Counted from the stretch's first letter, positions 505 to 29,574 are shown. The stretch is DNA of 32,000 nucleotides from Halomicrobium mukohataei DSM 12286 (GCF_000023965.1 NC_013202.1:3078488-3110487), one strand, 5' to 3'. Made by a program: numbers and translations. Notes: generated by a model from the letters alone, not told the origin.

Positions 505-846
505 TCAGTGGTCGTCTTCGCGCCACTTGTGGTCGCACTCGGTACAGGTGAAAAAGCGCGTCTCGGACTCGTCGGCGGCCCGGATCTGCTTCATCTCCCA
601 GAAGGCCCGGTCGTTGCCACACTCGGGACAGTGTGCGTCCGTCGTCGGCCCCATGTCTTCGGCCTCGACCTCGGAAGTGTCGACGATCTCGCTCTCTTCC
701 TGGCCCTGCGTGGTCACCATCGAACTTTCGTCCGCCGCGTCGCGGGCCCGCTCGGCACCGCAGCTGCCACAGACCCAGACGCCGTCTTCGGCTTTCATCA
801 TCGAACCGCAGTCGTCACAGAACTCCATGGTTGACTGGGATTGCAA
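505..846 (-). CDS. tfs: transcription factor S (TFS / RpoM-like transcript cleavage factor)
   Basis: 113 aa. It has an N-terminal Zn ribbon (CDDCGS...CGSCG) and a C-terminal TFIIS-type Zn ribbon (CPECGN...CTECDHKW) with the acidic loop IRAADESETRFF, equivalent to the SADE catalytic hairpin. Confidence 0.85.
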   Translation of the reverse strand: MQSQSTMEFCDDCGSMMKAEDGVWVCGSCGAERARDAADESSMVTTQGQEESEIVDTSEVEAEDMGPTTDAHCPECGNDRAFWEMKQIRAADESETRFFTCTECDHKWREDDH

Positions 847-883
847 TCGAAGTGGTTTAAGCTCGGGGGTTCATCGCTCGGCG

Positions 884-1195
884 GTGTTCAGATAAGCAGC
901 AGCACTGACTGACATATAGACACCGAAAGCCCTCGTGCAGTTGCGGTCCCGCGGCTCGCTGCGCGCGCTCCGCGTGCTTGCTTCGCCGGGGTTCCCGCAA
1001 CTGCACTCGCCCTTTCATCCGCCAGGGTTCAGACGGTGAACCAGCCGATTCCTGGTGGATGAAAGGGCGAGGTGCGGTCGACGGTTCTGCGGCGGCACTA
1101 TCGAACGCAGTGAAGATATCCGCCACAGAACCGCCGAGCGTGCCGAGGGCTTTCGGTGCCTCGACGATGCTACTCTCGATCTCTTATCTGAACAC
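884..1195. repeat. nested inverted-repeat element; candidate structured ncRNA or MITE-like palindromic element
   Basis: Perfect complementary blocks read by eye: 884-896 gtgttcagataag / 1183-1195 cttatctgaacac (13 bp); 921-935 caccgaaagccctcg / 1144-1158 cgagggctttcggtg (15 bp); 936-946 / 995-1005 (11 bp); 1007-1020 / 1057-1070 (14 bp); 1082-1095 / 1120-1133 (14 bp with 1 mismatch). It fills the tfs / membrane-gene intergenic region. Confidence 0.8.
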
Positions 1196-1205
1196 TACCC
1201 ATCGC

Positions 1206-2222
1206 TCAGCGTTCCAGCCAGCTCGAACAGGCGTCGAGGTCGTCCATGGTTCGCTCGTGGAGCTGGCAGTACGGCCTCGACTCGCCGTCTTCCATCACGT
1301 ACTCGAAGTGTCGACAGTTCCCACAGTACGCTTCGAGGGAGTCTTCGTTCTCGTCACCGTCGCTCGTCGAATCGAGGACGTCGTTGCTGAAGGCTGCGCC
1401 ACCGGTCACCGTTCCGTCGCCTTCGATCACTTCGCCGCCGTCGGCGCTGGGTTCAGTCTGTAGTCCTCTGGAGTAGCCCGTGGCGGTGTCCGCGATGGGA
1501 TCGAAGGACTCCGTCTGGGTGGCATCGGCCGACCGTCGATCGGCGGCCGGCGACCCGCCGTCGTCGGCCGCGTCGCTGTCGTCGCGTGTTGCGCCCGTGA
1601 CGGTCGCGCCGTCGTGACCGGTCGACGCGGTCTCGCGGTTCGTCTGGGTCTCGACCTCGCCGTCGAGGTCCGTCCCGAAGAGGCCGACACCGCCAAAGCG
1701 GCCGAGCGAGCGGGCCTCTTCGACGAGCTGGATCGTCCCCTGGCGGGTGATCTCCATGCGGGCCGTCCCGCCGGGATCGTTGCGGGTCTTGAACGTCGCC
1801 AGTGCGACGAACAGACACCAGAAGATCGTGACGACGCCGAAGAAGTAGACGGCCGTCGTCGCCAGCGTCAGCAGCGGCGCGGCGGTGACCCAGTCGTAGG
1901 GATAGACGTGCTGGAACATGGCGACACCGATCGCCGTGATTCCCGTCCCGACGATTGCAGCCCCACGGACCGACCGCGACGCCGGGAGGACGGCGAAGAC
2001 GCCGAGCAACACGGCCGGTAAGCCGAGTCCCGCGAGGACCCCCGCAAGCTCTCGGGCAGGATACCGCCCCAGCGACTGGACACCCACGTTCGTCGTCGCC
2101 AGCGCGATGGCACCCACGACCATCGACCCACCGACGAGAAAGAGCGCGCTGCCGAGGAGCTGTTGTCGCCGGCTGGCCACCCGGCCGACGTTGCCCTCGT
2201 ACACGTCTGTGAGACTCGTCAT
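1206..2222 (-). CDS. membrane protein (about 4 TM) with acidic linker and C-terminal Cys-rich (zinc-ribbon-like) domain
   Basis: 338 aa with an ATG start. It has hydrophobic helices in the N-terminal 150 aa, a long D/E/T/G-rich linker, and a C-terminal YCGNCRHFEYV...PYCQLHERTMDDLDAC motif (CxxC...C...C). Composition is halophile-like. Confidence 0.75.
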   Translation of the reverse strand: MTSLTDVYEGNVGRVASRRQQLLGSALFLVGGSMVVGAIALATTNVGVQSLGRYPARELAGVLAGLGLPAVLLGVFAVLPASRSVRGAAIVGTGITAIGVAMFQHVYPYDWVTAAPLLTLATTAVYFFGVVTIFWCLFVALATFKTRNDPGGTARMEITRQGTIQLVEEARSLGRFGGVGLFGTDLDGEVETQTNRETASTGHDGATVTGATRDDSDAADDGGSPAADRRSADATQTESFDPIADTATGYSRGLQTEPSADGGEVIEGDGTVTGGAAFSNDVLDSTSDGDENEDSLEAYCGNCRHFEYVMEDGESRPYCQLHERTMDDLDACSSWLER

Positions 2223-3100: not shown

Positions 3101-3114
3101 GCCAGAACAAGAAC

Positions 3115-3318
3115 TTACTGGTCGTCGAGTCGATCCACCCGGCGCTGTAGCTCCTCGACCTGCTGTTCCAGTCGGTCGAGGCGTTGCTGGTCTGGCGAGC
3201 GGTTCTGCCGGACGAGCAAGACGCCGCCGACGAGCGCGAGCGACACCACGAGAAAGAGCAATAAGAGCGCGCCGACGAAGAGCAGTTCGACGCCGACCGG
3301 GAGCTGTAGCGGTTCCAT
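3115..3318 (-). CDS. small membrane protein: one TM helix plus coiled-coil tail (67 aa)
   Basis: ATG at 3318 gives MEPLQLPVGVELLFVGALLLLFLVVSLALVGGVLLV...RLDRLEQQVEELQRRVDRLDDQ. The architecture matches 2822..3100. The listed 3363 start is a TTG that overlaps the nreA stop. Confidence 0.55.
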   Translation of the reverse strand: MEPLQLPVGVELLFVGALLLLFLVVSLALVGGVLLVRQNRSPDQQRLDRLEQQVEELQRRVDRLDDQ

Positions 3319-3359
3319 ACCGGCGTCTGGACGGCGAGGCGTATAAGCGCTGTCGGCGA

Positions 3360-4643
3360 TCAAAAGTCGGCCAGCGTCGACTGGAGTCCCGCGACCATGT
3401 CGGATTTGCGCCGGAGCGTCCCCAGCGACACCGGGAGCTGTTCGGTGACGGCGGTCACGGCGTCGCGGAAGCTCTCGGCGACGGCGGGCTGATCGTGATA
3501 CCGGTGGTTCGCGTCGCCAGCACCCTCATCGAAGGCGTTTCGGACACCTTCGCGGACCTGCCAGACGCCGACGGGGGCCCAGTAGTCGTCGGTGACCTCT
3601 CGGAGGACGAGACACTTCGCCTGGCGGTCTCGCTCCTGGAGGTGTTCGAGCACGCCCAGCCGCGAGGCGTAGTACGCGCCGGCAGTCTCCTCGACGTAGC
3701 CGGTGCGGCCCTCGTAGCCCTCGTTAGCGCTGGCGAGGTAGTGAGTCTGGCCGGTCGGGTTCCAGACGCTCTCGGGGGCCTTCATCTCGACGAGTTCGAA
3801 CTCCCACTGGCCAAGGGTCATGAGGACCCAGTAGCGGTTGCCCATGTACTCGTTGTACCAGACCTCGGTCTGGTCGATGGTGTTGCGGTTCTGGATCGTG
3901 CCCCGGAGATACTGCCCGACCGTGTCGTCGACGGCGGTGATCGACCACCGCGTCGGGACGAGTGTGCGCTGACGGCGCTGGCCCAGCGCACCCGCCGAGA
4001 GGATCGTGTTGACCTCGTACACGTCGAAGCCACGGCGGTAGAGGTAGTTCATCGCGCCCTCTGCCTGCCAGTCGTCGTCCTCGAGGGTCTTCTCGACGGC
4101 GCGGGGGACGTGTGGGTTCTCCGCGAGGTCGGCGGTCGTCGCGTTGGCACGCGGCCCCGTGGGCGTGCCCACGTCGTCGAAGCGAACGTCCAGGTCCGGC
4201 GTGCCGTCGAGTCCGACCTCCACGTCGACGGGATGGTCGGCGATCGCGACCTCGCGCTGCGTGCCGACGAAGCCGTCCCACACGTCCGACACGTCGACGT
4301 TCGCCGAGCGCGTGCTGTTGAGCATCCCGGTCCGTCGCTGGAGCACGTCGTCGATCCCCAGCCCGTCCCGGTACCACTGGCCGCTGGTGGCGAACTGCTC
4401 GGCGTCGGCGTCGGACGCCATCGGCGAGAGCACGCCCGTCGACACGTCGGGATAGCCCGACCGGCCGACGAAGATCTCCGGCGCGGTCGAACCAAAGAGC
4501 GCGTCGCCCTGGACGGTCTCCTCGAACTGCCGTTCGACGTCCTCGAGGTGGTTCGTGATCTCGTAGGACTTCTCTTCGGCGAGGCGACGCCGCTCGGCGG
4601 CCTCGTCGCGATCGAACCCCTCGATGAACTCGTCGAGACGCAT
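3360..4643 (-). CDS. nreA: Nre-family DNA repair protein (NreA-like, DUF650/DUF651 type)
   Basis: 427 aa. It carries the conserved FGSTAPEIFVGRSGYPDVSTGVLSP block typical of archaeal Nre proteins. The C-terminus GLQSTLADF fits a PCNA-interacting PIP box (QxxLxxF). A TATA-like ttttatc lies about 30 nt upstream. Confidence 0.8.
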   Translation of the reverse strand: MRLDEFIEGFDRDEAAERRRLAEEKSYEITNHLEDVERQFEETVQGDALFGSTAPEIFVGRSGYPDVSTGVLSPMASDADAEQFATSGQWYRDGLGIDDVLQRRTGMLNSTRSANVDVSDVWDGFVGTQREVAIADHPVDVEVGLDGTPDLDVRFDDVGTPTGPRANATTADLAENPHVPRAVEKTLEDDDWQAEGAMNYLYRRGFDVYEVNTILSAGALGQRRQRTLVPTRWSITAVDDTVGQYLRGTIQNRNTIDQTEVWYNEYMGNRYWVLMTLGQWEFELVEMKAPESVWNPTGQTHYLASANEGYEGRTGYVEETAGAYYASRLGVLEHLQERDRQAKCLVLREVTDDYWAPVGVWQVREGVRNAFDEGAGDANHRYHDQPAVAESFRDAVTAVTEQLPVSLGTLRRKSDMVAGLQSTLADF

Positions 4644-5889: not shown

Positions 5890-6146
5890 CGCCGCTCGAC
5901 GACCCGGTCGATCGTCAGCCGGTCGTAGCCCAGCCCCTCGTGGACCGCGAGCTCCAAGGCGTTGACGAGATAGTGGGCGACGACGACCACGAGCAGGCTG
6001 TCGGTGAGGACGAACCCGGCCGCCAGCGCCAGACCGAGCCCGCCGGTGACGAGCATCCCGACTCGCCCCTGCGCGCCGTGAGCGGCACCGAAGACGACCG
6101 ACGAGGCTGCGTGCAGCCACGGCGAGAGAGAGAAGCCAGCGGTCAG
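5886..6146 (-). pseudogene. 3' fragment of a CPBP (CAAX/Abi) protease gene; truncated duplicate of 7739..8551
   Basis: It translates to ...LTAGFSLSPWLHAASSVVFGAAHGAQGRVGMLVTGGLGLALAAGFVLTDSLLVVVVAHYLVNALELAVHEGLGYDRLTIDRVVERR*. This matches the C-terminal ~80 aa of the full gene, but there is no N-terminal part and no start. The stop (5886-5888) overlaps the convergent gene's stop. Confidence 0.8.
5908..6105. repeat. direct repeat, copy A (partner 7755..7952)
   Basis: Hand alignment gives 198 bp with 5 mismatches and an offset of 1847 bp. Weaker similarity continues to about 6146 / 7993. Confidence 0.9.
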
Positions 6147-7738: not shown

Positions 7739-8551
7739 TTAGTCGATGAGCGTCTCGATCGTCAGCCGGTCGTAGCCCAGCCCCTCGTGGACCGCGAGCT
7801 CCAGGGCGTTGACGAGGTAGTGGGCGACGACGACCACGAGCAGGCTGTCGGTGAGGACGAACCCGGCCGCCAGCGCCAGACCGAGCCCGCCGGTGACGAG
7901 CATGCCGACGCGCCCCTGCGCGCCGTGGGCGGCACCGAAGACGACCGACGAGACGACCGCGAGCAGCCACGGCGAGACGGAGAATCCGGCCGCCATCGCG
8001 CCGATGGCAGCGCCACGGAAGACGACCTCCTCGACGACGGCGACGGTCGGCAGCGCGACGCCGAGCAACAGCACCCACCCACCCAGTGAGTCGGGGGCGA
8101 GCAGTTCGCGGACGGCCTCGTCGTAGCCCGCACCGGTGGCGTCGGCGACTGCACCCGCGGCTTCGTTGGCCAGCCAGAGGGCGACGCCGAAGCCGATCCC
8201 GACGGCGACGCCGGGGAGCCCACGGGCGAGCGCGGTCTCGGGGATCCCGAGCGCCCACGGCGGGATCGAGAAGTACACCGCGGCCCCGACGACGACCGCG
8301 CCGAACAGCCCCTGGGTCACGACGACGTTGGCGAGCAAGGCACCGGGCGACAGCCGCGCCCGCGGGTCCGCTACCGGCCGCTCGAAGCGCGGCACGACCG
8401 GGTCGGTCGGTCGCGGATCGCGTGGCGAGGGCTCCCTGAACCGGACTGGGTCGTCGTCGCCGCTCAGGGCAGACTGGGACGCTCTCGCGAGTGCGAGAAG
8501 CAAGAACAGAGAGAGGGCGAGCAGGCCGGCGAAGGCGGCCCACCGCGCCAC
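7739..8551 (-). CDS. abi: CPBP family intramembrane glutamic endopeptidase (CAAX protease / Abi)
   Basis: 270 aa with multiple TM helices. Motifs present are EEVVFRGA (EExxxR), FGAAHG (FxxxH) and HYLVNALE (HxxxN). The GTG start lies 4 nt after the lonB stop on the same strand. Confidence 0.85.
   Translation of the reverse strand: MARWAAFAGLLALSLFLLLALARASQSALSGDDDPVRFREPSPRDPRPTDPVVPRFERPVADPRARLSPGALLANVVVTQGLFGAVVVGAAVYFSIPPWALGIPETALARGLPGVAVGIGFGVALWLANEAAGAVADATGAGYDEAVRELLAPDSLGGWVLLLGVALPTVAVVEEVVFRGAAIGAMAAGFSVSPWLLAVVSSVVFGAAHGAQGRVGMLVTGGLGLALAAGFVLTDSLLVVVVAHYLVNALELAVHEGLGYDRLTIETLID
7755..7952. repeat. direct repeat, copy B (inside the intact CPBP gene)
   Basis: See 5908..6105. 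Confidence 0.9.
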
Positions 8552-12396: not shown

Positions 12397-14820
12397 ATGC
12401 AACACAGAAGAGACGTGCTTGCGAGTCTGGGCATCGCACTGTCGACTGCACTTGCCGGCTGTTCGGAAGACACCGACGGCGAGACCGACGGCGAGAGCAG
12501 CGACGAAGCGACCGAGACGGACCGGACACAGTCGAGTGGCCCCGAACTCGCGGCTTCGGCCCAGCTCAACGTCTACCGCGCCCGGCTCTTCGACGCCGTC
12601 GCGCTCGGTCGTGCCGGCCAGACCGCCGCGGGAGCGTCCGTCGCCCAGTCGATCTTCCAGCGGTTCGAGAACGCGACCGGGGAGTACGGCGCTCACGAGA
12701 CGCTGGAACGGACCAGCGAGTCGGCCTACGAGGGATTCGAGAGCGCGCTCGGGGAACTCCGGTCGACGCTCGAAGACGGCGACACCGACGCCGCCGCCGA
12801 GGCGGCGACGACGGCCAGCGACCAGCTCCAGATCGCCCAGCAGGCCCTGATCGGCAACGACGCCACGCGCGCACTCGACGCGCTCCTCCTCGGGAGCCGC
12901 GCCGCCAACACCCGCGTACTGGGCGAGGCTGGTCACTTCGAGGCGGCGGCGACCGTGGCCACCGAAACGACCGAGCGGTTCGAAGACACGCTCGTCCACG
13001 GCGCACTCGAAAGCGCCGACGGGGACGCCTACGAGGACTTCGAGTCCGGACTGGCGTCGATCCAGCGCGCCGCCAGCGAGGGGGACGCCGAGGGCGTGAC
13101 CGACGCCGTCGCCGCGGCCCAGTCGGCGGCGGTGGCGGGTGCCTACGCGCTGGGAACCGAGTCGGTCGCCGGGACCGGTCACCTCGCAGCGATGCAGTCA
13201 GTGGGGTACGACGCCGCGGCACTCGCCGGTCTCGGCGGCCCGAGTGAGGCCCTCGCGCACGCGACGACGCTGACCACCTACCGGGCGCGGATCCGGGACG
13301 CGGCGTGGCTGGCCGACGCCGACGAGGGATCGACGGCGGGCACGGTCGTCGGGAACGTCTTCGCGGACTTCGAGGGTGCGCGTGCCCACGAAGCGCTGGA
13401 AGAAGCCGACCACGAGGCCTACGAGGGGTTCGAGAGCGGCCTGGAGTCGCTCCAGTCGGCCGTCGAGAGCGGCGAAGGCGTCGACGACGCCCTCGCCACG
13501 GTGGACGAACACCTCCGGACCGGCGTCGCGACGCTGGCCGGCGACCACGCCCCGGTCCTGCAGGCCGGCTTCTTCCGGGCGCGTCTCGCCGACGCACGCG
13601 AACGCTACGAGCGAGGTGCGCCCTCGGTCGCCGCGTCGATCACCCAGGAGCTGTTCGAGCGGTTCGAGGCCGACGAGCTCGGGTTCCACGAGACGCTCGA
13701 AGAGGCCAGCGAGGACCTCTACCACCGCTTCGAGGAGGAGCACCTGGCCGGCCTGATCGAGGCCTACGAGAACGACGACAGCGAGGCGGTCACCACCCAC
13801 CACGAGGGCGCGCTCGACGCGCTCCTGGAGTTCGAGGCCACCACCGGGGACAGCGTCGCGAGCGCGGCCGAGACCGCGTACTTCGTCGCTCGCGGATTCG
13901 ACAGCGCTACCGTCGCCACGCTGGGCGACAGCGAGCGCGCGGCGACGATTCCACGGGCCGCCTTCGAGCACTTCGAGAGCGGTGCAGCGGGCTACCACGA
14001 GGCACTGGAACACGCCGACCACGAGACCTACGAGACGTTCGAGTCCGATCTGGGCGCGATCCGGTCGACCGCGGAGTCGGGCGGCGACGTGCGCAGTGCC
14101 GTCCAGACGTTCGTGAGCACCGCGATCGACGGCATCTACGCCATCGTCGGCGCTGCCGGCGGCTCGAACGGCGCGGCCGCTGCCGCGATCGTACAGGACG
14201 TGTACGCCACCTTCGAGGAGGCCCGCGTCCACGAGGCGCTGGAAGAAGCCGACCACGAGGCCTACGAAGGATTCGAGGCGGCGCTGGAAGCGTACGCGGG
14301 CGGACTGGACGGCGAGGGCGACGTGCCCGTCGGTCGCCTCGCAGACGCGACGCTGCGCGCTCAGTTCGCCGTCGCGGGTGCGCTCGACGACGCTCCCGTC
14401 GGCCAGGACGGCGAGGGGAGCGCCGAGACGGAAGAGACCGAATCGTCGCTGGAAGGGGGCCCGAACGTCGTCGACGGCGTCCCGGACGACGCCGACCACG
14501 TCGTCTCGATGCAGGCAGTGGCCTTCGAGCCGGCCGAGTTGACCGTCTCGGTCGGCGATACGGTCGCCTTCGAGCACGTCGCCGGTGAAGCCCACAACGT
14601 GGTGGCCCGAGAGGAAGAGCTACCGGCGGACGCGAGCTACTGGGCCTCCGGCGACTTCGACTCCGAGACGGCCGCAGTCGAGGGGTGGGACAACGGACAG
14701 GGTGCCGTCCAGTCGGGCCAGTCCTACGTCCACACCTTCGAAACGGCCGGCGAACACCCCTACTACTGTGTCCCACACGAGATGGCGGGCATGGAAGGCA
14801 CGATCGTCGTCGAAGAGTAA
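12397..14820 (+). CDS. Tat lipoprotein with six helical H/E-rich repeats and a C-terminal halocyanin/plastocyanin-like cupredoxin domain
   Basis: ATG at 12397 gives MQHRRDVLASLGIALSTALAGC (twin-Arg plus lipobox LAGC). There are six ~110-125-aa repeats, each with F..FE......HE.LE......YE.FE..L, for example HEALEEADHEAYEGFESGL. The C-terminal domain has type-1 Cu ligands (AGEAHNV ... YYCVPHEMAGM). The listed start at 12217 adds Arg/Pro-rich non-coding-like sequence. Confidence 0.85.
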   Translation: MQHRRDVLASLGIALSTALAGCSEDTDGETDGESSDEATETDRTQSSGPELAASAQLNVYRARLFDAVALGRAGQTAAGASVAQSIFQRFENATGEYGAHETLERTSESAYEGFESALGELRSTLEDGDTDAAAEAATTASDQLQIAQQALIGNDATRALDALLLGSRAANTRVLGEAGHFEAAATVATETTERFEDTLVHGALESADGDAYEDFESGLASIQRAASEGDAEGVTDAVAAAQSAAVAGAYALGTESVAGTGHLAAMQSVGYDAAALAGLGGPSEALAHATTLTTYRARIRDAAWLADADEGSTAGTVVGNVFADFEGARAHEALEEADHEAYEGFESGLESLQSAVESGEGVDDALATVDEHLRTGVATLAGDHAPVLQAGFFRARLADARERYERGAPSVAASITQELFERFEADELGFHETLEEASEDLYHRFEEEHLAGLIEAYENDDSEAVTTHHEGALDALLEFEATTGDSVASAAETAYFVARGFDSATVATLGDSERAATIPRAAFEHFESGAAGYHEALEHADHETYETFESDLGAIRSTAESGGDVRSAVQTFVSTAIDGIYAIVGAAGGSNGAAAAAIVQDVYATFEEARVHEALEEADHEAYEGFEAALEAYAGGLDGEGDVPVGRLADATLRAQFAVAGALDDAPVGQDGEGSAETEETESSLEGGPNVVDGVPDDADHVVSMQAVAFEPAELTVSVGDTVAFEHVAGEAHNVVAREEELPADASYWASGDFDSETAAVEGWDNGQGAVQSGQSYVHTFETAGEHPYYCVPHEMAGMEGTIVVEE

Positions 14821-19706: not shown

Positions 19707-19790
19707 CGTACGGTTTCTTGTAGTTGCTTACCGGTGATCGTCGCCACGGAGTAGACGATCACCGGTAAATCGCTACAATAATCCGTATCC
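19707..19790 (+). ncRNA. conserved ~84-nt hairpin element, copy 1 (candidate 3'-UTR element or small RNA)
   Basis: Blocks are CGTACGG (19707-13), N4, TTGTAGTTGC, a perfect 15-bp stem 19728-19742 / 19754-19768 with an 11-nt loop, N13, and TCCGTATC (19782-19789). It starts 4 nt after the stop of 19434..19703. Confidence 0.55.
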
Positions 19791-28653: not shown

Positions 28654-29493
28654 ATGACAGACGAGGCGACGGCGTTCGTGCCCGGTCACGTGACGGGCTT
28701 TTTCACGACCGATCCGGCCGACGATCCGACGAAAGCGGGATCGCGCGGGGGCGGGCTCGCGTTGGCCGACGGCGTGACCGTCACCGTCGAGCGCAGCGAC
28801 GAGCGATCGGTGACGCTCGACGGCGTCGACATCGAGATCGAAGCCGTCGAGCGCGTGCTGGACGCGCTGCGAGCGACCGTCGCGGTGCGAGCGGAGACGC
28901 CGCTGCCGCTGGGCTCGGGCTTTGGCGTCTCGGGGGCGACCGCGCTTGGGGCGGCGCTGGGGACCAACGCCCTGCTGGAGCGGGGGCTCTCGGAGAACGA
29001 ACTGGTGACGATCGCACACGGCGCGGAGGTCCAGGCCGGGACCGGGCTGGGCGACGTGGTCGCGCAGGCCCGCGGCGGCGTCCCGCTGCGGCTCGAACCG
29101 GGCGGGCCACAGGACAACTACATCGACGCCATCCCGGCACGCGGCCGCGTCGAGTACCACGTCATCGGCGAACTCTCGACCGAAGCCATCCTCGACGGCG
29201 ACACCGCGGCACTGACCCGTGCCGGCGAGAAAGGGCTCTCCCGGGTCGTCAAGGAACCGACGACGGAGTCGTTCCTCCGGGCCTCGCGCCAGTTCGCCCG
29301 CGAGGCGGGGCTGCTGACCGACGACGTGCGGTCGGTGCTGGAAGACGTGGCGGCGGCCGACGGCGACGGCGCGATGGCGATGCTCGGAGAGACGGTCTTT
29401 ACCGTCGGCTCGGGGCTGACCGACGCGGGCTACGACGCGACGATCACCGAGATCCATCCCGGCGGTGCGACGGTGCTCGACTCGTCTGACTGA
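28654..29493 (+). CDS. pantoate kinase (archaeal CoA pathway, GHMP kinase superfamily)
   Basis: AFVPGHVTGFF at the N-terminus, the GHMP motif PLGSGFGVSGA, and GTGLGDV. About 280 aa, as in archaeal PoK (COG1829). Confidence 0.8.
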   Translation: MTDEATAFVPGHVTGFFTTDPADDPTKAGSRGGGLALADGVTVTVERSDERSVTLDGVDIEIEAVERVLDALRATVAVRAETPLPLGSGFGVSGATALGAALGTNALLERGLSENELVTIAHGAEVQAGTGLGDVVAQARGGVPLRLEPGGPQDNYIDAIPARGRVEYHVIGELSTEAILDGDTAALTRAGEKGLSRVVKEPTTESFLRASRQFAREAGLLTDDVRSVLEDVAAADGDGAMAMLGETVFTVGSGLTDAGYDATITEIHPGGATVLDSSD

Positions 29494-29574
29494 TACGGAC
29501 GGTCGTCGGAATGTACCGGTGAGCGTCTACCCCATGGCGACGCTCACCGGTAAGCAACTACAACGTTCCGTATG
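29492..29574 (-). ncRNA. conserved ~84-nt hairpin element, copy 2 (opposite orientation to copy 1)
   Basis: The minus strand reads CATACGG, N4, TTGTAGTTGC, a 14-bp perfect stem (29514-29527 / 29539-29552) with an 11-nt loop, N14, and TCCGTATC. It lies about 37 nt 3' of the MFS transporter stop in sense orientation. Confidence 0.55.

What the first reader, a model, noticed from the sequence alone, without database searches (positions are those of the whole stretch)
884..1195. A ~312-bp nested inverted-repeat element folds as a closed four-way junction between tfs and a membrane-protein gene
The 359-bp spacer is almost entirely taken up by a set of long, perfect complementary segments.
- Outer stem: 884-896/1183-1195 (13 bp).
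- Second stem: 921-935/1144-1158 (15 bp).
- Hairpin A: 936-946/995-1005.
- Hairpin B: 1007-1020/1057-1070, whose apical part continues with CCAGG/CCTGG and GTTCA/TGAAC.
- Hairpin C: 1082-1095/1120-1133, with 1 mismatch.

Linkers at the junction are 0, 1, 11 and 10 nt. The two unpaired spacers between the outer and second stems are both exactly 24 nt but unrelated in sequence.

Such a compact multi-helix architecture is what a structured ncRNA of about 300 nt looks like. The near-perfect stems and symmetric block spacing would also fit a MITE-like or cruciform DNA element with terminal and subterminal repeats. I could not match it to SRP RNA, RNase P RNA or an ORB-type origin.
Basis: seen in the sequence. 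Interest (0 to 1): 0.7.

Follow-up and report, generated by a model that had tools for sequence, protein, structure and literature searches.

The report
Haloarchaeal IS6-type MITE, inverted dimer
The folded 312-bp element is a small non-autonomous transposon (a MITE with the ends of the haloarchaeal insertion sequence ISH29) that landed between cdpA and tfs; its "four-way junction" arises because it carries two inverted copies of a conserved hairpin module, so it is a fairly ordinary mobile element with one unexplained, conserved structured core.

Summary
Every stem is at the stated coordinates, and the fold is far stronger than shuffled sequence (z about -14 on either strand).

The element is not a stand-alone RNA gene. 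Its true span is 880-1199 (320 bp). It has 17-bp terminal inverted repeats, GGCGGTGTTCAGATAAG and CTTATCTGAACACTACC, and a perfect 8-bp target-site duplication, CATCGCTC. These repeats match those of ISH29-type IS6-family insertion sequences, which also make 8-bp duplications.

Two Halomicrobium relatives lack the element at this site. Removing it plus one duplication copy reproduces their sequence.

A pattern scan found at least 120 related stretches, almost all in Halobacteria. Fifty-seven are complete copies, and about half of these have perfect 8-9-bp duplications.

A covariance model of the 118-nt core hits the window twice, at 925-1026 (+) and 1051-1154 (-). The four-way junction is therefore an inverted dimer of one hairpin module.

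That core shows strong covariation (24 of 29 pairs) and matches no Rfam family. It also occurs, without transposon ends, at the start of a conserved ~650-nt non-coding region on 77 haloarchaeal plasmids. Its function is unknown.

Verdict: a new member of a known kind. Interest is modest.

The parts
872..879 (.). Left copy of the 8-bp target-site duplication, CATCGCTC
   Evidence: Identical to 1200-1207. A single copy is present in the reconstructed empty site of relatives L148 and L149.
880..896 (+). Left 17-bp terminal inverted repeat, GGCGGTGTTCAGATAAG
   Evidence: 15/17 complementary to 1183-1199. Same sequence as the TIRs of ISH29 (L150), an IS in L022 and an IS in Halomicrobium urmianum (L160).
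897..920 (.). 24-nt variable spacer S1 between the TIR and the core
   Evidence: Not conserved among family members. It swaps sides, as its reverse complement, with S2 in H. katesii copies L085 and L049.
925..1026 (+). Core module copy 1.
   Evidence: Covariance model R1, 84.3 bits, E = 1.8e-15, full length 1-118.
1027..1050 (.). Junction between the two inverted cores. The centre of the dimer's symmetry is near 1036-1038.
   Evidence: Inverted repeat I1, arms 1006-1037/1040-1071. It lies between the two R1 hits.
1051..1154 (-). Core module copy 2, inverted (tail to tail with copy 1).
   Evidence: Covariance model R1, 43.2 bits, E = 2.1e-6, full length 1-118 on the minus strand.
1159..1182 (.). 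24-nt variable spacer S2
   Evidence: Unrelated to S1; see the inversion in L085 and L049.
1183..1199 (-). Right 17-bp terminal inverted repeat (CTTATCTGAACACTACC on the + strand)
   Evidence: Two independent Logan unitigs stop at window 1170, which is 30 nt (k-1) inside a repeat boundary at 1199/1200.
1200..1207 (.). Right copy of the 8-bp target-site duplication, CATCGCTC. It overlaps the last 2 nt of the cdpA stop codon.
1206..2222 (-). Neighbour gene cdpA-like membrane protein (DUF7139; PF23600/PF23601). It is not disrupted; the element starts 6 nt past its stop codon.
505..828 (-). Neighbour gene tfs (transcription factor S). Its TATA-like box at 855-861 remains intact, 19 nt from the element.
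   Evidence: TIGR01384, 80.6 bits. The sequence GCTTAAACC, 26 nt upstream of the ATG, is conserved in relatives that lack the element. Its promoter role is inferred.

Best explanation
Window 880-1199 is a miniature inverted-repeat transposable element (MITE) of the IS6 family, belonging to the ISH29/ISH14 group.

It encodes no transposase. It carries the 17-bp terminal inverted repeats that ISH29-type DDE transposases act on. It was inserted, in an ancestor shared with Halomicrobium katesii, into the short gap between the cdpA stop codon and the tfs promoter, duplicating 8 bp of target (CATCGCTC).

Mobilisation is by a transposase supplied in trans from a full-length ISH29-like element. This step is inferred. 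For this family the usual route is replicative cointegrate formation followed by recombinational resolution, which leaves a simple insertion with an 8-bp duplication.

The interior is unrelated to the IS. It consists of two inverted, tail-to-tail copies of a ~105-nt hairpin module (the 'core'), arranged as TIR - spacer - core> <core - spacer - TIR.
- Pairing of the two 3' blocks (CTCGCCCTTTCA.CC) gives 'hairpin B'.
- Each core's own hairpin gives 'hairpins A and C'.
- The TIRs give the outer stem.

The closed four-way junction is therefore a geometric consequence of an inverted dimer, not evidence of an RNA gene.

The core is a conserved, covarying structure of unknown function. It also exists outside transposon ends on haloarchaeal plasmids.
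For: TIRs and TSD:
- 17-bp TIRs (15/17) and a perfect 8-bp TSD.
- The same TIRs and an 8-bp TSD occur on ISH29 in pNRC200 (GGCAGTGTTCAGATAAG ... CTTATCTGAACACTACC, TSD GATAGGCC).
- They also occur on a 697-bp IS in L022 (TSD GGTTTGAC), whose 211-aa ORF scores 199 bits against NF033587, IS6 family transposase.
- They occur again on an intact copy in the Halomicrobium urmianum chromosome.

Empty site:
- L148 and L149 lack the element.
- Removing it plus one TSD copy from the window gives GGAACGCTGAGCGATGAACCCCC. This matches their sequence once their own unrelated small insertion is removed.

Dispersed family:
Nearly all are in Halobacteria, and 18 loci are in H. katesii.
- There are 57 complete copies. 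Twenty have a perfect 8-bp TSD at fixed offset, and 28 have 8-9 bp when a 1-nt offset is allowed.

Other evidence:
- Unitig breaks point to a repeat boundary at 1199/1200 in the window's own lineage.
- Two R1 hits in opposite orientation show the dimer. The same architecture is seen in Haloplanus, Halonotius and metagenome-assembled genomes.
- No tnp-like sequence is found in the element or in any other fetched MITE locus.
- Literature: IS6 family elements are 700-890 bp with 8-bp TSDs. ISH29, ISH14 and ISHarch12-14 are 696-698 bp, encode 211-aa transposases and have GG-starting 15-17-bp TIRs. ISfinder already lists IS6-family MITEs (PMC7986276, PMC6807381).
Against: - No other copy lies in the 32-kb window. 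I could not scan the window's own genome, so multi-copy status there rests on the unitig inference and on the close relative H. katesii.
- No ISH29-type transposase was shown in the same genome, only in the genus.
- Trans-mobilisation by an IS6-family transposase has not been demonstrated for this element. ISfinder lists only two MITEs for this family (PMC7986276).
- The strong covariation in the core is more than a neutral transposon relic needs, and it is not explained by the MITE model alone.
Confidence: 0.92

Rival explanations
1. The element is a MITE, but its core is functional cargo. It would be a strand-specific structured RNA, or a single-stranded-DNA hairpin such as a plasmid replication or transfer signal. 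It would have been captured from a conserved plasmid non-coding region, and its structure would be kept by selection. This complements the best explanation rather than replacing it.
For: - 24 of 29 core pairs show changes on both sides, and 92.9% of cells are paired against 34-48% for slid registers. 0 of 500 shuffles reach the observed covariation.
- One G.U pair is kept in 64 of 78 MITE cores and in 9 of 9 plasmid cores. It would be an A.C mismatch on the other strand.
- The core occurs without transposon ends on 77 haloarchaeal plasmids, usually once per plasmid and always in the same gene context and orientation.
- The IS itself has no core.
Against: - Outside that single pair, G.U/U.G (53) and A.C/C.A (42) are nearly balanced, so both strands pair equally well.
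- Paired and unpaired columns are equally conserved.
- The alignment was fitted to the model's structure, which inflates pairing.
- Long palindromes can stay complementary through template-switch correction, without selection.
- No Rfam match was found, and there are no expression data.
Confidence: 0.3
2. It is a stand-alone, chromosomally encoded structured ncRNA gene of about 300 nt, conserved at the cdpA-tfs locus.
For: - Very stable multi-helix fold, z about -14.
- Compensatory differences between copies in hairpins A and C.
Against: - No Rfam family was found, including SRP RNA and RNase P RNA.
- It is absent from the same spacer in two Halomicrobium relatives.
- Dispersed copies with TIRs and TSDs occur at unrelated loci.
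- The fold is equally good on both strands.
- The inner 244 bp is inverted relative to the outer spacers in near-identical copies L085 and L049. That would scramble a single defined RNA.
Confidence: 0.03
3. It is a locus-specific DNA palindrome or cruciform with a local role, such as a regulatory site for tfs, a terminator for cdpA or an origin-like element, rather than a mobile element.
For: - It sits exactly between a stop codon and a promoter.
- The arms are perfect.
Against: - Relatives keep the same tfs promoter region without it.
- The same unit occurs at many unrelated sites with different flanks.
- The ends are those of a known IS.
Confidence: 0.02

Closest known systems
ISH29 / ISH14-group insertion sequences (IS6 family; ISH14, ISH29, ISHarch12-14)
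   Same: The 17-bp terminal inverted repeats are the same, GG(C/T)(A/G)GTGTTCAGATAAG. The target duplication is the same 8 bp. The host range is the same, Halobacteria (table in PMC6807381).
   Different: The IS is 696-698 bp and encodes a 211-aa DDE transposase. The window element is 320 bp and has no transposase. Its interior is unrelated to the IS: no core match in L022, L150 or L151 and no tnp match in MITE loci.
MITEHarch3, the haloarchaeal IS6-family MITE listed in ISfinder (with MITEBth2; sizes 227 and 336 bp)
   Same: It is a non-autonomous IS6-family element from a haloarchaeon that also carries ISH29-like ISHarch12-14. The two reported sizes bracket the monomer (about 217-229 bp) and dimer (about 320-343 bp) forms found here (PMC7986276, PMC6807381).
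   Different: Neither paper describes a conserved core, a dimer architecture or a plasmid homologue.
Other haloarchaeal MITEs (Haloquadratum HqIRS families, Halobacterium MITEHsal1-14, ISH2)
   Same: All are transposase-free elements whose TIRs and TSD length match a resident IS and whose interior is unrelated to that IS. They are frequent strain-specific insertions and are nested in other mobile elements (PMC3119063, PMC7002104). Nesting is seen here in H. katesii L147.
   Different: Those MITEs belong to the ISH4, ISH8, ISH9 and ISH11 classes. Table 7 of PMC7002104 lists no MITE under the ISH14 class. None of the passages I read reports a covarying structured core shared with plasmids.
Structured bacterial MITEs (Correia/NEMIS, ERIC, RUP, BOX)
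   Same: From general knowledge: short TIR-bounded repeats that fold into long hairpins and sit in intergenic or 3'-UTR positions. There they can affect transcript processing.
   Different: The hosts and transposase families differ. No effect on RNA has been shown for the present element.

Membership tests
[quoted passage not shown] | Terminal inverted repeats at both ends | tested here: met
   880-896 against 1183-1199, 15/17, with the inner 13 perfect.
[quoted passage not shown] | Direct target-site duplication flanking the TIRs | tested here: met
   CATCGCTC at 872-879 and 1200-1207. 20-28 of 57 complete family members have perfect 8-9-bp TSDs.
[quoted passage not shown] | Too short to encode a transposase, and none encoded | tested here: met
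   The element is 320 bp. tblastn with the ISH29-like transposase hits only L022 among all loci and the window.
[quoted passage not shown] | Multiple dispersed copies at unrelated loci | tested here: met
   At least 120 stretches, with the scan truncated. 18 loci are in H. katesii, 7 of them full-length 320-322-bp copies with 84-88% overall identity to the window. For the window's own genome there is only indirect evidence, from unitig breaks.
[quoted passage not shown] | Presence/absence polymorphism with a reconstructible empty site | tested here: met
   L148 and L149 lack it. The reconstructed sites agree except for one A/G difference.
IS6 family (as a non-autonomous derivative of the ISH29/ISH14 group) | TIRs of about 14-17 bp starting with GG and matching an autonomous family member | tested here: met
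   Identical 13-nt inner TIR and GG start in ISH29 (L150), L022 and L160. NF033587 scores 199 bits for the L022 ORF.
IS6 family (as a non-autonomous derivative of the ISH29/ISH14 group) | 8-bp target duplication | tested here: met
   The family value is given in PMC7986276 and PMC6807381.
IS6 family (as a non-autonomous derivative of the ISH29/ISH14 group) | Mobilised in trans by an IS6-family transposase (cointegrate route) | not testable with these tools
   This needs a transposition assay. An intact ISH29-like IS was shown only in the genus, not in this genome.
MITEHarch3 (ISfinder entry) | Sequence identity to the ISfinder reference | not testable with these tools
   No reference sequence was available. 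Only the name and sizes come from PMC6807381 and PMC7986276.
Known structured RNA families (Rfam 15, including archaeal SRP RNA and RNase P RNA) | Covariance-model score at or near the gathering threshold | tested here: not met
   0 hits at gathering in the whole window. At E <= 10 there are only spurious miRNA-like hairpin hits, far below threshold. Nothing was found for monomer copies or for the plasmid region.
Structured ncRNA (generic) | Strand-specific structure (excess of G.U over A.C) and a defined transcript | tested here: inconclusive
   G.U/U.G total 117 against A.C/C.A 42, but 64 of the G.U come from one conserved pair. The remainder is 53 against 42. A transcript is not testable here.

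The most novel reading that the evidence does not exclude
The ~110-nt core of this MITE family may be a previously undescribed, widely conserved haloarchaeal structured nucleic-acid element. It would be an RNA, or a single-strand DNA hairpin used in plasmid replication or transfer. Its native home would be the start of a conserved ~650-nt non-coding region of haloarchaeal megaplasmids. ISH29-type ends would have captured it and spread it through chromosomes as monomers and inverted dimers.
Probability: 0.3. Interest if true: 0.6.

Novelty: new member of a known kind. Interest (0 to 1): 0.33.

Why it matters
For annotation, it removes a candidate 'new 300-nt ncRNA'. It also gives exact boundaries for a mobile element that gene callers overlay with spurious ORFs, such as 857-1126 and 978-1463.

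For mobile-element biology, it shows that IS6-family MITEs are abundant across many genera of Halobacteria, although ISfinder holds only two for the family. This is notable for a family thought to move mainly by cointegrate formation.

The open point is the core. It is a covarying hairpin with an invariant G.U pair, shared between MITEs and a conserved plasmid non-coding region. It could lead to an unrecognised plasmid cis-element or RNA.

Tried and rejected
- Rfam at gathering threshold on the whole window found nothing. At E <= 10 on 780-1300 it gave only hairpin-shaped miRNA and sRNA models far below threshold. This rejects SRP RNA, RNase P RNA and all other curated families.
- tRNA/tmRNA scan found none.
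- The phage collection gave no match.
- Other copies within the 32-kb window were sought; there are none.
- I considered a 12-bp TSD (CATCGCTCGGCG / CATCGCTCAGCG, D4). I rejected it in favour of an 8-bp TSD plus 17-bp TIRs, because ISH29, L022, L160 and many MITE copies show that arrangement.
- Derivation of the interior from the IS by internal deletion was rejected. The IS copies have no core match.
- A strand-specific RNA test by G.U versus A.C counts was inconclusive.
- A loops-versus-stems conservation test showed no difference.
- Literature searches for the TIR and for core motifs found no relevant paper.
- One protein search failed because the H. urmianum plasmid IS copy is a pseudogene.

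Full report
**1. The observation**

The window is high-GC haloarchaeal DNA. The region is identical to a locus in two NCBI Halomicrobium assemblies, CP045142.1 and RZNE01000001.1. The neighbouring 338-aa protein is named 'MULTISPECIES ... [Halomicrobium]'.

The finding lies between two minus-strand genes. One is tfs (505-828, TIGR01384). The other is a CdpA-like membrane protein gene (1206-2222, PF23600/PF23601).

Folded as RNA, 884-1195 gives -188.5 kcal/mol on the plus strand and -194 on the minus strand. Shuffles give about -117 to -119 with sd 5, so z is about -14.

**2. Not a known RNA**

Rfam 15 gives no hit at gathering threshold anywhere in the window. A permissive search of 780-1300 gives only generic hairpin (miRNA-type) matches far below threshold. 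No tRNA or tmRNA is present.

**3. True ends and target duplication**

Three clues pointed to a mobile element.

- A weak BLASTN match in Halorhabdus tiamatea plasmid pHTIA turned out to be a shorter (~217 bp) element. It carries the same termini, GTGTTCAGATA...TATCTGAACAC.
- Two independent Logan unitigs that carry cdpA both stop at window position 1170. That is k-1 = 30 nt inside position 1199/1200, as expected if sequence inward of 1199 is repeated elsewhere in those genomes. This is an inference.
- Extending the outer stem by 4 nt gives 17-bp terminal inverted repeats: GGCGGTGTTCAGATAAG at 880-896 and CTTATCTGAACACTACC at 1183-1199, 15/17 complementary. They are flanked directly by a perfect 8-bp direct repeat, CATCGCTC, at 872-879 and 1200-1207.

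**4. The autonomous partner**

A scan of viral contigs for the TIR found one contig (L022) with two inverted matches 697 bp apart. They are flanked by an 8-bp duplication, GGTTTGAC, and enclose a 211-aa ORF. That ORF is an IS6 family transposase (NF033587, 199 bits against a cutoff of 125).

Its closest annotated relatives on haloarchaeal plasmids are 'IS6-like element ISH29 family transposase' and ISH15.

ISH29 itself, on pNRC200, has the ends GGCAGTGTTCAGATAAG ... CTTATCTGAACACTACC and the 8-bp duplication GATAGGCC. An intact copy in the Halomicrobium urmianum chromosome has the same ends and the duplication GATTCGAA.

This agrees with the published description of the group: 696-698 bp, 211-aa transposase, 15-17-bp TIRs starting with GG, and an 8-bp TSD (PMC6807381; family overview in PMC7986276).

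**5. Empty site**

The closest CdpA relatives are 90% and 86% identical. They lie in the same gene order but with a 130-bp cdpA-tfs spacer. They lack the element.

Deleting 880-1199 plus one TSD copy from the window gives GGAACGCTGAGCGATGAACCCCCGAGCTTAAACC. The relatives give GGAACGCTGAGCGGTGAACCCCCGAGCTTAAACC once their own unrelated ~80-bp palindromic insertion is removed. The insertion and its 8-bp duplication are thus directly reconstructed.

H. katesii is 95% identical in cdpA and has the same left junction (GAGCGATG|GGT...). There, however:

- the TIR has been split at its internal TCA by the small palindromic element,
- one core is deleted,
- the far flank is no longer tfs.

The insertion therefore predates the split of those two lineages and has since been a site of nesting and rearrangement.

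**6. A large family**

Nearly all are from Halobacteria: Halomicrobium, Haloplanus, Halonotius, Halovenus, Halorussus, Halococcus, Natronococcus, Halolamina, Salinarchaeum and many metagenome-assembled genomes.

Fifty-seven complete copies with both TIRs were extracted. Twenty have a perfect 8-bp duplication at the fixed offset. Twenty-eight have 8-9 bp when a 1-nt offset is allowed.

Sizes cluster at about 205-240 bp, about 264-283 bp, about 317-343 bp and about 364-460 bp.

H. katesii alone contributes 18 loci. Five of them (L125, L107, L070, L112, L096) hold full-length 320-322-bp copies 84-88% identical to the window copy over the whole length. Two others (L085, L049) hold copies whose inner 244 bp is 98% identical to the window.

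**7. Why it looks like a four-way junction**

The ~217-bp 'monomer' form has the layout TIR - variable ~25-40 nt - conserved core - tail - TIR. I built a covariance model (R1: 118 positions, 29 pairs) from 13 monomer cores.

R1 hits the window twice: 925-1026 on the plus strand (84 bits) and 1051-1154 on the minus strand (43 bits). The 320-bp element is therefore an inverted, tail-to-tail dimer.

- The two GAAAGCCCTCG blocks pair as the 'second stem'.
- The two CTCGCCCTTTCA.CC blocks pair as 'hairpin B'.
- Each core's own long hairpin is 'hairpin A' or 'hairpin C'.
- The TIRs are the outer stem.

The same dimer layout occurs in Haloplanus sp. C73, Halonotius roseus and several metagenome-assembled genomes.

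The two 24-nt spacers are unrelated because this segment is variable across the whole family.

In two H. katesii copies (L085, L049) the inner 244 bp is 98% identical to the window but inverted relative to the outer spacers. Their spacers are the reverse complements of S2 and S1, on swapped sides. This is as expected for recombination between the 15-18-bp inverted blocks.

**8. The core is a conserved structure of unknown function**

On 83 distinct cores, 92.9% of cells are paired, against 34-48% in slid registers. Twenty-four of 29 pairs show changes on both sides. No shuffle reaches the observed covariation. RNAalifold on full monomers gives the same picture independently: 16 of 41 pairs are compensatory. 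Copies within Halomicrobium also differ by compensatory changes in hairpins A and C.

One G.U pair is kept in 64 of 78 cores. Outside that pair, G.U (53) and A.C (42) are balanced, so both strands pair about equally. Paired and unpaired columns are equally conserved.

These data fit selection on a structure. They also fit self-correction of a DNA palindrome, and they do not identify a strand.

The IS copies contain no core. Rfam has no match to monomers.

**9. Unexpected relative of the core**

A monomer used as BLASTN query against PLSDB matched 77 haloarchaeal plasmids. In nearly all of them only the core and tail align (query 43 to about 168), without TIRs, and usually once per plasmid.

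In eight plasmids examined (Haloferax, Halobacterium, Haloarcula, Natrinema, Natronobeatus, Halomicrobium, Halorubrum), the core opens a roughly 550-730-nt GC-rich non-coding region that is conserved across genera. In six of them this region lies between a TrmB-like HTH/DUF7437 gene pair and an OB-fold 'DNA-binding protein' gene.

R1 scores these cores at 62-79 bits. The same G.U pair is invariant in 9 of 9. Rfam finds nothing in the region.

The MITE core is therefore homologous to part of a conserved plasmid cis-region. Whether the plasmid region is the source or an ancient domesticated insertion cannot be decided here.

**10. Mechanism, shown and inferred**

Shown:
- the ends, the duplication and the empty site,
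- family membership,
- the dimer architecture,
- absence of a transposase.

Inferred from family knowledge:
- an ISH29-type transposase made elsewhere binds the TIRs and inserts the element;
- for IS6-family enzymes this normally proceeds through a replicative cointegrate, which homologous recombination resolves to a simple insertion with an 8-bp duplication (PMC7986276).

Local consequences:
- cdpA is intact, because the element begins 6 nt after its stop codon.
- The tfs TATA-like box (855-861) and its downstream sequence are unchanged compared with relatives.
- cdpA transcripts probably read into the element. This is speculation.

**11. Comparison and novelty**

Haloarchaeal MITEs whose ends match a resident IS but whose interior does not are well described (PMC3119063, PMC7002104). 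ISfinder already lists an IS6-family haloarchaeal MITE, MITEHarch3 (PMC6807381). The two IS6-family MITE sizes given, 227 and 336 bp (PMC7986276), are close to the monomer and dimer sizes here. Identity could not be tested.

I therefore file the element as a new member of a known kind. What appears undescribed is the breadth of the family, the inverted-dimer form, and the covarying core shared with plasmids.

Interest is modest for the finding as such. It would be higher only if the core proves functional.

Noticed in passing
window 19709-19787 and 29494-29572; also L148 3539-3620, L149, and eight sites in H. katesii loci (L033, L105, L107, L110, L141, L147): A second family of small mobile elements. 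They are ~80-bp palindromes of the form (A)TACGG...TACCGGTGA(G/T)CGTC-loop-GACG(A/C)TCACCGGTA...CCGTA(T). In most copies they are flanked by a 3-bp duplication, TGA or TCA. Several sit exactly on or next to a TGA stop codon: window 29491-29493, and the cdpA stop codon in two relatives. One has inserted into the TCA inside the ISH29-type TIR in H. katesii.
   Followed up: partly
L152 3985-4480, L153 4001-4640, L154 4001-4550, L155-L159 near 3500-4150 (haloarchaeal plasmids): A conserved GC-rich non-coding region of roughly 550-730 nt that starts with the MITE core and contains further conserved blocks (for example CCTCCGCGTCGCTCGCGACCGACCAT) and long palindromes. Seventy-seven plasmids match the core. 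In the eight plasmids examined the region is conserved across genera, and in six of them it lies between a TrmB-like HTH/DUF7437 operon and an OB-fold protein gene. There is no Rfam match. Candidate roles are a plasmid cis-element or a long ncRNA.
   Followed up: partly
L147 441-800 (Halomicrobium katesii scaffold 1, 1872001-1880000): The orthologous copy of the window's MITE is degraded. Its TIR is interrupted by the small palindromic element, and one core is deleted. The sequence beyond the far TIR is not tfs and shows no TSD, which suggests a rearrangement at the MITE.
   Followed up: partly
L085 2997-3316 and L049 6034-6353 (H. katesii): The inner 244 bp of the dimer MITE is 98% identical to the window but inverted relative to the outer 24-nt spacers. 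This implies inversion between the 15-18-bp inverted GAAAGCCCTCG blocks.
   Followed up: yes
L155 2221-3297 and L156 686-1762: Plasmid-borne paralogues of peptide chain release factor aRF-1 (prf1) lie close to the conserved non-coding region on Haloferax mediterranei and Natronobeatus plasmids.
   Followed up: no
window 5896-6105 and 7743-7952; window 12693-14324: A 210-nt direct repeat, 95% identical, with copies 1.8 kb apart. Separately, five copies of a ~96-nt unit (67-74% identical) inside a long ORF region. These are probably paralogous or repetitive coding sequence.
   Followed up: no
L005 2959-3175 (Halorhabdus tiamatea pHTIA): The monomer MITE overlaps the 3' end of an annotated 'HNH endonuclease' CDS (3104-3535, minus strand). 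The annotated C-terminus of that gene is therefore probably MITE-derived or truncated.
   Followed up: no
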